A stretch of DNA of 64,000 nucleotides from Escherichia coli (lineage in GTDB: Bacteria; Pseudomonadota; Gammaproteobacteria; Enterobacterales; Enterobacteriaceae): assembly GCF_045037415.1 (NCBI RefSeq), contig NZ_CP173438.1; one strand, 5' to 3'. Positions 9,620 through 9,649 of this stretch are shown here, piece after piece; position 1 is the first letter of the stretch; every line of letters starts with the position of its first letter. The translations under genes and the position numbers were made by a program. Below the pieces are notes generated by a model. That model made no database searches and was not told the origin of the DNA. It saw only the letters and a program-made list of their open reading frames with translations.

Positions 9620-9649
9620 AACAAAAAGGCAGACAGTTTCCTGTCTGCC
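9620..9649 (-). terminator. Hairpin plus T-run immediately downstream of hcp (probable hcp terminator/attenuator before clpV)
   Basis: Minus-strand reading GGCAGACAGGAAACTGTCTGCC followed by TTTTT, 8 bp after the hcp stop. Confidence 0.6.

What the first reader, a model, noticed from the sequence alone, without database searches (positions are those of the whole stretch)
9620..9649. Strong hairpin terminator between hcp and clpV
Seen: a GC-rich stem with T-run 8 bp after the hcp stop, inside the 190-bp hcp-clpV spacer. Inference: it may attenuate readthrough so that Hcp is made in large excess over ClpV and VgrG, a commonly proposed arrangement.
Basis: inference. Interest (0 to 1): 0.2.

Follow-up and report, generated by a model that had tools for sequence, protein, structure and literature searches.

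The report
Hcp terminator upstream of RfaH site
A textbook transcription-terminator hairpin sits just after the type VI secretion tube gene hcp in E. coli. It is kept by compensating mutations across enterobacteria and always lies about 100 bases before a known RfaH anti-termination site, so it probably sets how much transcription continues into clpV and the rest of the operon.

Summary
On the minus strand, 7 nt after the hcp stop codon, a 9-bp GC-rich stem with a GAAA loop (9649-9628) is followed by UUUUUGUUGU, inside the 190-nt hcp-clpV spacer of the E. coli metV-island T6SS.

It is not a chance hairpin. In 59 distinct spacers from enterobacterial species the stem is 97% paired, and 7 of 9 pairs show compensatory changes.

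An exact ops element (GGCGGTAGCGTG, 9525-9514), the RfaH loading site, lies 102 nt downstream of the hairpin. Two further covarying hairpins (H2, P3) lie in between. The ops site is already published: RfaH ChIP in CFT073, whose elements are identical here, and ops1 mutagenesis in EAEC Sci1.

The terminator-like hairpin and H2 are not mentioned in the EAEC ops1 preprint, and three full-text searches found no description of them in this cluster type.

Best reading: a leaky intrinsic terminator and 3' stabiliser ends most tssB-hcp transcripts. Polymerases that read through then acquire RfaH to transcribe clpV, vgrG and the distal genes. Termination itself is inferred, not shown. The finding is ordinary in kind and modestly interesting as a conserved composite module.

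The parts
9657..10148 (-). hcp (tssD), 163 aa; stop codon UGA at 9659-9657
   Evidence: ORF list; Pfam T6SS_HCP E=5.2e-37; RefSeq annotation of identical DNA
9628..9649 (-). T1: terminator-like hairpin with 5' arm 9649-9641 GGCAGACAG, loop 9640-9637 GAAA and 3' arm 9636-9628 CUGUCUGCC
   Evidence: covariation in 59 sequences (97.3% paired, 7 of 9 pairs with compensatory change)
9616..9627 (-). U-rich tract UUUUUGUUGUGU directly after T1
   Evidence: all 59 aligned relatives have at least 5 T in the 8 nt after the stem (set pre-filtered for at least 4)
9577..9615 (-). H2: second conserved hairpin, about 15 bp, not followed by a U tract (arms 9615-9601 and 9592-9577)
   Evidence: single-sequence fold; 87% paired, 10 of 15 pairs with compensatory change; also present in EAEC 042 and K. 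pneumoniae
9550..9571 (-). Conserved unpaired blocks CACAAUCUG (9571-9563) and AACCUGAUG (9558-9550; consensus GACCUuAUG)
   Evidence: alignments; function unknown
9529..9549 (-). P3: 4-bp covarying stem (9549-9546 GGCC with 9532-9529 GGCU) enclosing a variable insert, immediately 5' of ops; JUMPstart-like
   Evidence: RNAalifold; 97.9% paired, 3 of 4 pairs compensatory; weak Rfam JUMPstart match 9544-9514, 17.8 bits against a gathering score of 35
9514..9525 (-). ops element GGCGGTAGCGTG (RfaH recruitment site) on the non-template strand, 59 nt before the clpV ATG
   Evidence: only match to GGCGGTAGNNTG in 64 kb, 0.06 expected; RfaH ChIP signal at this site in CFT073 dhns dstpA (PMC9765446); CFT073 sequence identical across T1, H2, P3 and ops
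6830..9466 (-). clpV (tssH), 878 aa; Shine-Dalgarno-like AAGGA at 9479-9475, ATG at 9466-9464
4494..6830 (-). vgrG, 778 aa, the next gene downstream; its start overlaps the clpV stop
   Evidence: Pfam Phage_GPD, T6SS_Vgr and DUF2345

Best explanation
The hairpin (T1) is an intrinsic, Rho-independent terminator at the end of the tssB-tssC-tssK-tssL-ompA-hcp segment of the T6SS operon. It works as a leaky stop. Many transcripts end in its U tract, which gives a hairpin-protected and therefore stable 3' end to the mRNA for the high-copy sheath and tube proteins. A fraction of RNA polymerases read through. Leakiness is expected because T1 begins only 7 nt after the hcp stop codon, within the reach of a terminating ribosome. 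Read-through polymerases transcribe two further structured elements (H2, P3) and pause about 100 nt later at the ops element. There RfaH loads and makes them resistant to Rho, H-NS and pausing through clpV, vgrG and the long distal part of the cluster. T1 lies upstream of ops and no ops-like site precedes it, so T1 itself is not subject to RfaH. It sets the step-down, and ops/RfaH decides whether the remainder is productive. Shown: the sequence anatomy, conservation with covariation, the fixed T1-to-ops spacing, and the published RfaH occupancy or ops requirement in two E. coli clusters that carry the same module. Inferred: that T1 actually terminates, its efficiency, its sensitivity to ribosomes, and its stabilising role.
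For: The anatomy is canonical: a 9-bp stem with 6 G-C pairs, a tetraloop and UUUUUGUUGU, with dG -19.9 and z -4.3. It is the only hairpin of this grade on the T6SS sense strand in the window, and shuffles give a mean of 1.4 registers per 64 kb against 25 observed. Of 66 hcp-clpV spacers with ops from other species, 61 have a hairpin of -11 to -23 kcal/mol with a T-rich tail 89-115 nt (median 101) upstream of ops. Covariation in T1 is strong: 97.3% of cells paired, for example columns 10/28 AU:30 and GC:29 and columns 14/24 AU:29 and GC:26. No shuffle of 500 reached the observed values for the whole three-helix structure, and slid controls gave 38-51% pairing. When an ERIC-like element of about 127 bp is inserted after hcp, T1 stays with H2 and ops. 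Loci that have lost ops still keep T1, namely Serratia L016 and L019, the MAG L059 and the orphan hcp of L011, so the hairpin serves hcp rather than RfaH. The same module precedes the experimentally validated ops1 of EAEC Sci1 and the RfaH ChIP site of CFT073. RT-PCR in K. pneumoniae stops at hcp. A terminator 8-9 bp after a stop codon is almost fully repressed by the ribosome, against an efficiency of about 0.9 beyond 30 bp (PMC4824070). No ops-like motif lies in the tssB leader on the sense strand. No conserved -10 or -35-like hexamer lies between T1 and ops. The stoichiometry fits.
Against: No 3'-end, RNA-seq or reporter data exist for this site. The stem-loop after hcp4 in Y. pseudotuberculosis, when mutated, changed only hcp4 mRNA stability and not downstream transcript levels. 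The missing hcp-clpV RT-PCR product in Klebsiella could equally reflect RNA processing or very low distal transcription. The clpV-vgrG junction was also negative. In many relatives the U tract doubles as the 5' arm of H2, so its conservation is not independent evidence for termination. In about 20 loci an ERIC-like insert moves T1 about 130 nt from the stop codon, so ribosome proximity is not a conserved requirement. Hustmyer et al. treat the ops as lying in a 5' leader with its own, unmapped promoter.
Confidence: 0.62

Rival explanations
1. T1 is mainly a 3' protective stem-loop (an mRNA decay barrier). The polycistronic RNA is cut downstream, for example in the long H2 duplex by RNase III or in the AU-rich tract by RNase E. 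T1 then blocks 3'-5' exonucleases, so hcp-proximal mRNA accumulates while distal RNA decays. Little polymerase actually terminates at T1.
For: This mechanism was shown by chromosomal stem mutation for the hcp4 stem-loop of Y. pseudotuberculosis T6SS4, where only hcp4 mRNA dropped and downstream genes were unchanged (PMC12503267). Deletion of the hairpin region after EHEC hcp3 lowered hcp3 mRNA (PMC13141884). H2 is a conserved 15-19 bp duplex directly 3' of T1 with no U tract of its own. It has no other obvious role and could be a processing site. The RT-PCR gap at hcp-clpV is compatible with this reading.
Against: T1 has a full U tract (5 consecutive U, 8 U in the 12-nt tract). In the window that tract lies outside H2, and a pure decay barrier does not need it. 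The Yersinia and EHEC clusters are different T6SS types with different gene neighbours, so the precedent is an analogy only. The two roles are not exclusive, because every intrinsic terminator hairpin also stabilises the 3' end it creates.
Confidence: 0.2
2. T1 is an efficient full stop that ends a tssB-hcp operon. clpV and the distal genes are transcribed from a separate promoter inside or just upstream of the spacer, and ops lies in that promoter's 5' leader as in classical RfaH operons.
For: Hustmyer et al. list the site as a leader ops of tssH and speak of potential promoter regions of tssH. Hsieh et al. conclude that clpV and vgrG1 are transcribed independently in K. pneumoniae. EHEC hcp3-vgrG3 has a terminator followed by a predicted promoter. 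All other known ops sites that bind RfaH are in 5' leaders.
Against: No sigma-70-like site is found in the spacer. No TAnnnT or TTGxxx hexamer is conserved at any alignment column between T1 and ops except inside ops itself. Barbosa and Lery likewise found a sigma-70 promoter before tssB but none before tssH (PMC6580597). No TSS was mapped in CFT073, where the entry is NA. H2 starts within 0-12 nt of the T1 stem and shows RNA-level compensatory changes, so it must be transcribed. That leaves no room for a promoter between T1 and H2 and implies transcription entering from hcp. In EAEC the ops1 and rfaH mutations act on a reporter after clpV, while the only promoter defined there is upstream of tssB.
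Confidence: 0.13
3. The hairpin is a chance inverted repeat, or a copy of a repetitive extragenic palindrome (REP, BIME or ERIC), with no role in T6SS expression.
For: Short GC hairpins followed by T runs occur by chance: the loose scan found 11 against 9.0 expected in 10 kb. ERIC-like repeats do insert in this very spacer in other species.
Against: The spacer occurs once per genome in 1291 E. coli genomes. Hairpins of this grade are rare in shuffles. The stem covaries across 59 sequences from many genera. ERIC-like inserts are additional to T1, not identical with it.
Confidence: 0.01

Closest known systems
Intra-operon intrinsic terminators (attenuators) that follow the gene for a high-copy structural subunit. 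The nearest cases are the terminator/hairpin region I of the EHEC hcp3-vgrG3 'h3R' (PMC13141884) and, from established knowledge, the hlyA-hlyB terminator of the RfaH-controlled hlyCABD operon.
   Same: A GC-rich stem plus U tract lies a few nt after the stop codon of the abundant product, followed by genes needed in lower amounts. In EHEC the hairpin starts at +8 of the hcp3 3' UTR, separates hcp3 from vgrG3, and stabilises hcp3 mRNA.
   Different: The T6SS type and downstream gene differ: clpV here, vgrG3 in EHEC. In hlyCABD the ops lies upstream of the terminator, so RfaH suppresses it. Here ops lies 102 nt downstream of T1, so T1 cannot be under RfaH control. No promoter is evident after T1, unlike the one predicted in h3R.
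ops/JUMPstart RfaH-dependent antitermination elements. These include ops1 of EAEC Sci1 (bioRxiv 10.1101/2025.02.08.637259) and the tssH (c3392) ops of CFT073 (PMC9765446).
   Same: There is an exact 12-nt ops on the non-template strand in an untranslated stretch, 59-60 nt before the clpV start. The CFT073 site is this same locus and sequence. The EAEC site sits in a homologous T1-H2-P3-ops spacer.
   Different: The finding itself (T1) is not the ops element but a terminator-like hairpin upstream of it, which the EAEC preprint does not mention. The ops is mid-operon, about 6.5 kb from the tssB start, rather than in a promoter-proximal leader. The Rfam JUMPstart model scores only 17.8 bits against a gathering score of 35.
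Intercistronic 3' stabilising stem-loops. The nearest case is the hcp4 stem-loop of Y. pseudotuberculosis T6SS4 (PMC12503267). The classic cases are the puf and pap operons, cited in that paper.
   Same: A GC-rich stem-loop lies directly after hcp, and the hcp segment is far more abundant than distal genes.
   Different: The Yersinia element was tested and did not act as a terminator. T1 here carries a canonical U tract, belongs to another T6SS cluster type (hcp-clpV rather than hcp4-tssE4), and is linked to an ops site.

Membership tests
Intrinsic (Rho-independent) terminator | G+C-rich stem-loop (stem of about 5-14 bp, loop of 3-8 nt) on the transcribed strand | tested here: met
   9 bp with 6 G-C pairs and a GAAA loop; -19.9 kcal/mol, z -4.3
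Intrinsic (Rho-independent) terminator | U-rich tract immediately 3' of the stem | tested here: met
   UUUUUGUUGU; at least 5 T in 8 nt in all 59 relatives (the set was selected with at least 4 T)
Intrinsic (Rho-independent) terminator | Lies downstream of a stop codon, outside coding sequence, in the sense orientation | tested here: met
   Starts 7 nt after the hcp UGA. The opposite strand has no T run after the stem.
Intrinsic (Rho-independent) terminator | Pairing maintained in evolution (compensatory substitutions) | tested here: met
   97.3% paired; 7 of 9 pairs with double-sided change. For the whole three-helix structure, no shuffle of 500 reached the observed values.
Intrinsic (Rho-independent) terminator | RNA 3' ends or polymerase release at the U tract | not testable with these tools
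   Only indirect evidence: no RT-PCR product across hcp-clpV in K. pneumoniae (PMC6350951)
RfaH ops / JUMPstart element (applies to the neighbouring element, not to the hairpin) | 12-nt consensus GGCGGTAGnnTG on the non-template strand | tested here: met
   GGCGGTAGCGTG at 9525-9514, the only match in 64 kb, 0.06 expected
RfaH ops / JUMPstart element | Located in untranslated RNA (coding-region ops sites do not recruit RfaH) | tested here: met
   131 nt after the hcp stop and 59 nt before the clpV ATG; the rule comes from PMC9765446
RfaH ops / JUMPstart element | RfaH occupancy, or dependence of downstream expression on ops and rfaH | not testable with these tools
   Published: ChIP signal at the identical CFT073 site; ops1 and rfaH mutants in the homologous EAEC spacer
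RfaH ops / JUMPstart element | Reaches the Rfam JUMPstart (RF01707) gathering score | tested here: not met
   17.8 bits against 35; no match at gathering threshold in 20 related loci
RfaH ops / JUMPstart element | Sits in the 5' leader just downstream of a promoter | tested here: inconclusive
   No promoter-like site in the spacer; no TSS mapped in CFT073; the position is mid-operon
Repetitive extragenic palindromes (REP, BIME, ERIC) | Many dispersed copies per genome | tested here: not met
   One place per genome in 1291 E. coli genomes
3' stabilising intercistronic stem-loop | Stable hairpin at the 3' end of the more abundant mRNA segment | tested here: met
   position directly after hcp
3' stabilising intercistronic stem-loop | Hairpin-dependent increase of upstream mRNA half-life | not testable with these tools
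   Shown only for analogous elements in Yersinia and EHEC

The most novel reading that the evidence does not exclude
T1-H2-P3-ops is a single conserved mid-operon 'terminate-or-commit' module of about 140 nt. It is not in Rfam and the hairpin part was not found described in the literature searched. T1 lies within ribosome reach of the hcp stop codon. Termination would therefore depend on how closely the ribosome follows RNA polymerase. Only polymerases that escape are converted about 100 nt later into RfaH-bound, termination-resistant complexes. The intervening hairpins keep Rho off the untranslated RNA, or provide a processing site. Expression of clpV, vgrG, the baseplate and the effectors would then be gated jointly by translation of hcp and by RfaH availability.
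Probability: 0.25. Interest if true: 0.55.

Novelty: new member of a known kind. Interest (0 to 1): 0.3.

Why it matters
T6SS machines need roughly 10-100 times more sheath and tube protein than ATPase, spike or baseplate protein, yet in these enterobacterial clusters all are encoded on one strand in a unit of at least 27 kb. A conserved leaky terminator after hcp, followed by an RfaH loading site, would explain how one promoter yields both very abundant proximal products and low but complete distal expression.

It also bears on how published results are read. The EAEC ops1 and rfaH phenotypes and the CFT073 RfaH ChIP peak have been interpreted without reference to the terminator-like hairpin 100 nt upstream. 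The Erwinia study looked only upstream of its T6SS-1 cluster, reported no predicted ops for it and called the RfaH effect indirect, whereas the EAEC preprint lists E. amylovora among species with an ops in the hcp-clpV spacer.

The module also makes one general question directly testable. That question is how RfaH is recruited in the middle of an operon, where NusG and a coupled ribosome would normally exclude it.

Tried and rejected
(1) Rfam. No family reaches its gathering score in the spacer or in 20 related loci. Only a sub-threshold JUMPstart match over P3 and ops appears, plus meaningless miRNA and snoRNA hits on the hairpins.

(2) Internal promoter. The sigma-70 scan finds none in the spacer. 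No -10 or -35-like hexamer is conserved at a fixed alignment column except TAGCGT inside ops. By eye, a sigma-54-like GG/GC pair in the H2 loop has the wrong spacing.

(3) Repeat element. The spacer is single-copy per genome.

(4) Bidirectional or antisense terminator. The plus strand has no T run after the stem.

(5) An upstream ops that would put T1 under RfaH control. There is none in the tssB leader. The only other sense-strand GGTAGNNT in the cluster upstream is inside the hcp coding sequence.

(6) Antiterminator alternative pairing. None was found upstream of T1. A possible pairing of the T1 3' arm with the H2 loop lies downstream and cannot act co-transcriptionally (by inspection).

(7) Literature. 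Searches for a described terminator in hcp-clpV spacers of this cluster type found only analogous elements in other T6SS types.

(8) A covariance model of the module was not built, because it would only recover its own training loci.

Full report
WHERE WE ARE. The window is E. coli chromosome. The 801 bases around the finding are 100% identical to many complete genomes and are present in 1361 of 5426 of them. The locus is the type VI secretion cluster next to the metV tRNA genes (tRNA-Met genes at 16621-16917).

All T6SS genes lie on the minus strand:
- tssB, about 15985..15485
- tssC, 15432..13888
- tssK, 13870..12533
- tssL, 12536..11871
- an OmpA-family (TagL-like) gene, 11858..10206
- hcp, 10148..9657
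- clpV/tssH, 9466..6830
- vgrG, 6830..4494
- two ORFs without Pfam matches

THE OBSERVATION. It is correct. Seven nt after the hcp UGA, the RNA can form GGCAGACAG-GAAA-CUGUCUGCC (9649-9628), followed by UUUUUGUUGU. The hcp-clpV spacer is exactly 190 nt. The 51-nt context folds to -19.9 kcal/mol (z = -4.3; none of 200 shuffles is as stable).

My own scan counted hairpins with a perfect stem of at least 8 bp, at least 5 G-C pairs and at least 5 T in the next 8 nt. It found 25 overlapping registers in the window, equal to 14 distinct sites, against a mean of 1.4 registers in 30 dinucleotide shuffles. This is the only such hairpin on the sense strand of the T6SS genes. The spacer is single-copy per genome, so it is not a REP-type repeat.

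WHAT ELSE IS IN THE SPACER. GGCGGTAGCGTG, an exact ops (operon polarity suppressor) sequence, lies at 9525-9514 on the same strand. That is 102 nt after the T1 stem and 59 nt before the clpV ATG. It is the only match to GGCGGTAGNNTG in 64 kb, where 0.06 is expected. Rfam's JUMPstart model gives a sub-threshold hit there (17.8 bits against a gathering score of 35).

This site is already known:
- Hustmyer et al. (PMC9765446) list GGCGGTAGCGTG 60 nt upstream of tssH (c3392) as one of eight RfaH ChIP targets in CFT073. It was seen in the dhns dstpA strain, and no transcription start site was mapped.
- The CFT073 spacer is identical to the window across T1, H2, P3 and ops.
- A 2025 preprint (10.1101/2025.02.08.637259) found a consensus ops ('ops1') between hcp and clpV of the EAEC Sci1 cluster. 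Mutating ops1 or rfaH abolishes sheath assembly and a reporter placed after clpV, but not a reporter between tssC and tssK. The preprint notes conservation in several enterobacteria.
- That preprint contains neither the word terminator nor the word hairpin.

COMPARATIVE ANALYSIS. A scan of one genome per species with an Hcp alignment returned 80 loci.
- 72 carry an ops within the stretch after hcp.
- Among the 66 with an identified clpV and an ops, 61 have a hairpin of -11 to -23 kcal/mol with a T-rich tail 89-115 nt (median 101) upstream of ops.
- In the short spacers (150-190 nt) the hairpin starts 4-10 nt after the stop codon.
- In about 20 longer spacers, an element that I recognise from memory as ERIC/IRU-like is inserted between the stop codon and the hairpin. 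The hairpin stays attached to the downstream module.

I aligned 59 distinct modules. RNAalifold recovers T1 and a short stem next to ops. I then counted pairs on the MAFFT alignment for a structure I specified:

| Helix | Cells paired | Pairs with compensatory change |
|---|---|---|
| T1 | 97.3% | 7 of 9 (e.g. AU:30/GC:29 and AU:29/GC:26) |
| H2, a second hairpin directly after the U tract | 87% | 10 of 15 |
| P3, a 4-bp stem closing a variable insert just 5' of ops | 97.9% | 3 of 4 |

For the whole three-helix structure, no shuffle of 500 reached the observed pairing or covariation. Sliding the partners by 1-3 columns drops pairing to 38-51%.

The whole spacer is therefore a conserved structured RNA module, T1 - U tract - H2 - P3 - ops. 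It must be transcribed as one piece from the hcp side.
- EAEC 042 Sci1 has the same module.
- So does a K. pneumoniae genome, after an ERIC-like insert.
- Loci that have lost ops still keep T1 and H2: two Serratia species and one MAG. An orphan hcp in Xenorhabdus keeps a T1-like terminator.
- Two of the three Pseudomonas loci have a different GC hairpin without a U tract and no ops; the third (L017) has no comparable hairpin.
The hairpin therefore travels with hcp, and the ops was added to, or lost from, that context.

MECHANISM. The anatomy and conservation fit a functional intrinsic terminator. It lies upstream of ops, and no ops-like site occurs in the tssB leader. RfaH therefore cannot suppress it.

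Experimental hints come from relatives:
- In K. pneumoniae NTUH-K2044, junction RT-PCR is positive from impB to hcp and negative for hcp-clpV and clpV-vgrG (PMC6350951).
- In EHEC, a hairpin at +8 after hcp3 separates hcp3 from vgrG3 and stabilises hcp3 mRNA (PMC13141884).
- In Y. pseudotuberculosis, the stem-loop after hcp4 acts only as a 3' stabiliser (PMC12503267).
- Li et al. (PMC4824070) showed that a terminator 8-9 bp after a stop codon is almost fully repressed by the terminating ribosome and reaches about 0.9 efficiency beyond 30 bp.

T1 at 7 nt is therefore expected to be leaky. That is needed if ops is to see any polymerase at all.

No sigma-70-like promoter is detectable or conserved between T1 and ops. 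Barbosa and Lery also found none before tssH. H2 abuts T1 and covaries as RNA. An internal promoter therefore seems unlikely, though it is not excluded.

I conclude that the most likely mechanism has three steps. T1 ends many tssB-hcp transcripts and protects their 3' end. Some polymerases read through. These pause at ops, acquire RfaH and complete the distal operon. This matches measured T6SS stoichiometry: TssB about 25,000 copies, TssC about 15,500, ClpV about 3,100, and spike proteins lowest (PMC6565705). Termination, its efficiency and the roles of H2 and P3 remain inferences.

COMPARISON AND NOVELTY.
- The ops site is already known.
- A terminator or stabiliser hairpin after hcp is a known kind of element in other T6SS types.
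- The specific hairpin here, its covariation across Enterobacterales, and its fixed coupling to H2, P3 and ops about 100 nt downstream were not found described in the searched literature.
- No Rfam family covers the module.
I rate it a new member of a known kind, of modest interest. The more novel reading is a translation-sensitive terminate-or-commit module for mid-operon RfaH loading. It is not excluded and is directly testable.

Noticed in passing
window 9514-9525 (- strand): Exact ops element GGCGGTAGCGTG, the RfaH loading site, lies in the same spacer 102 nt downstream of the hairpin. It is the only match in the 64-kb window. It is published for CFT073 and, in a homologous spacer, for EAEC Sci1.
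   Followed up: yes
window 9577-9615 and 9529-9549 (- strand): Two further conserved RNA hairpins lie between the terminator and ops. H2 is about 15 bp with no U tract, and P3 is a 4-bp stem around a variable insert. Both have compensatory substitutions across 59 sequences. Their function is unknown; candidates are a processing site, a shield against Rho, or a JUMPstart-like stem.
   Followed up: partly
L008, L024, L025, L031, L037, L039, L046, L049, L055, L060, L061, L065, L068, L070, L075, L077 and L083, about 1-130 nt after the hcp stop: In many species an imperfect palindrome of about 127 bp is inserted between the hcp stop and T1, leaving T1-H2-P3-ops intact. I recognise it from memory as ERIC/IRU-like (e.g. 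...GCGTTGGCTGCGTTCGCTCACCCCGGTCACTTACTTATGTAAGCTCCCGGGG...). Yersinia loci carry additional inserts.
   Followed up: partly
L016 and L019 (Serratia), L059 (MAG), L020 and L081 (Serratia oryzae): There are natural variants of the module. In L016 and L019 the ops is degenerate (GGACAGTAGCGTG, GGGCCATAGCGTG), and in L059 it is absent, all with T1 and H2 kept. In L020 and L081 the T1 5' arm is lost and another GC-rich repeat is inserted, with ops kept. These could serve as natural experiments.
   Followed up: no
PMC9562583 (Erwinia amylovora dRfaH RNA-seq); L028 and L029 (Erwinia aphidicola): That study reports T6SS-1 down 1.5-4.8 log2 in the rfaH deletion but calls the effect indirect because no ops lies upstream of the cluster. 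The EAEC preprint lists E. amylovora among species with an ops in the hcp-clpV spacer, and the E. aphidicola loci here carry T1 plus an exact ops in that spacer. The effect in E. amylovora may therefore be direct.
   Followed up: partly
window 2119-4482 and 1472-2122 (- strand): The two ORFs after vgrG (787 aa and 216 aa) have no Pfam match at E<=1e-5. They are possibly an effector/immunity pair. This region differs from strain SA186, where vgrG is annotated as frameshifted and is followed by an SLT-domain gene.
   Followed up: no
window 16621-16917 (- strand): Three tandem tRNA-Met (CAT) genes flank the island in the window, whereas the SA186 record annotates two.
   Followed up: no
window 8730-8753 (+ strand): A terminator-like hairpin (CCCGGTTCTCCCACCAGAATCGGG + TTGTTTTT) lies on the strand antisense to clpV, inside its coding sequence. 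It is probably a chance match.
   Followed up: no
alignment A2 column 172 = window 9520-9515: The only TAnnnT (-10-like) hexamer conserved in the T1-to-ops stretch is TAGCGT, inside ops itself.
   Followed up: no
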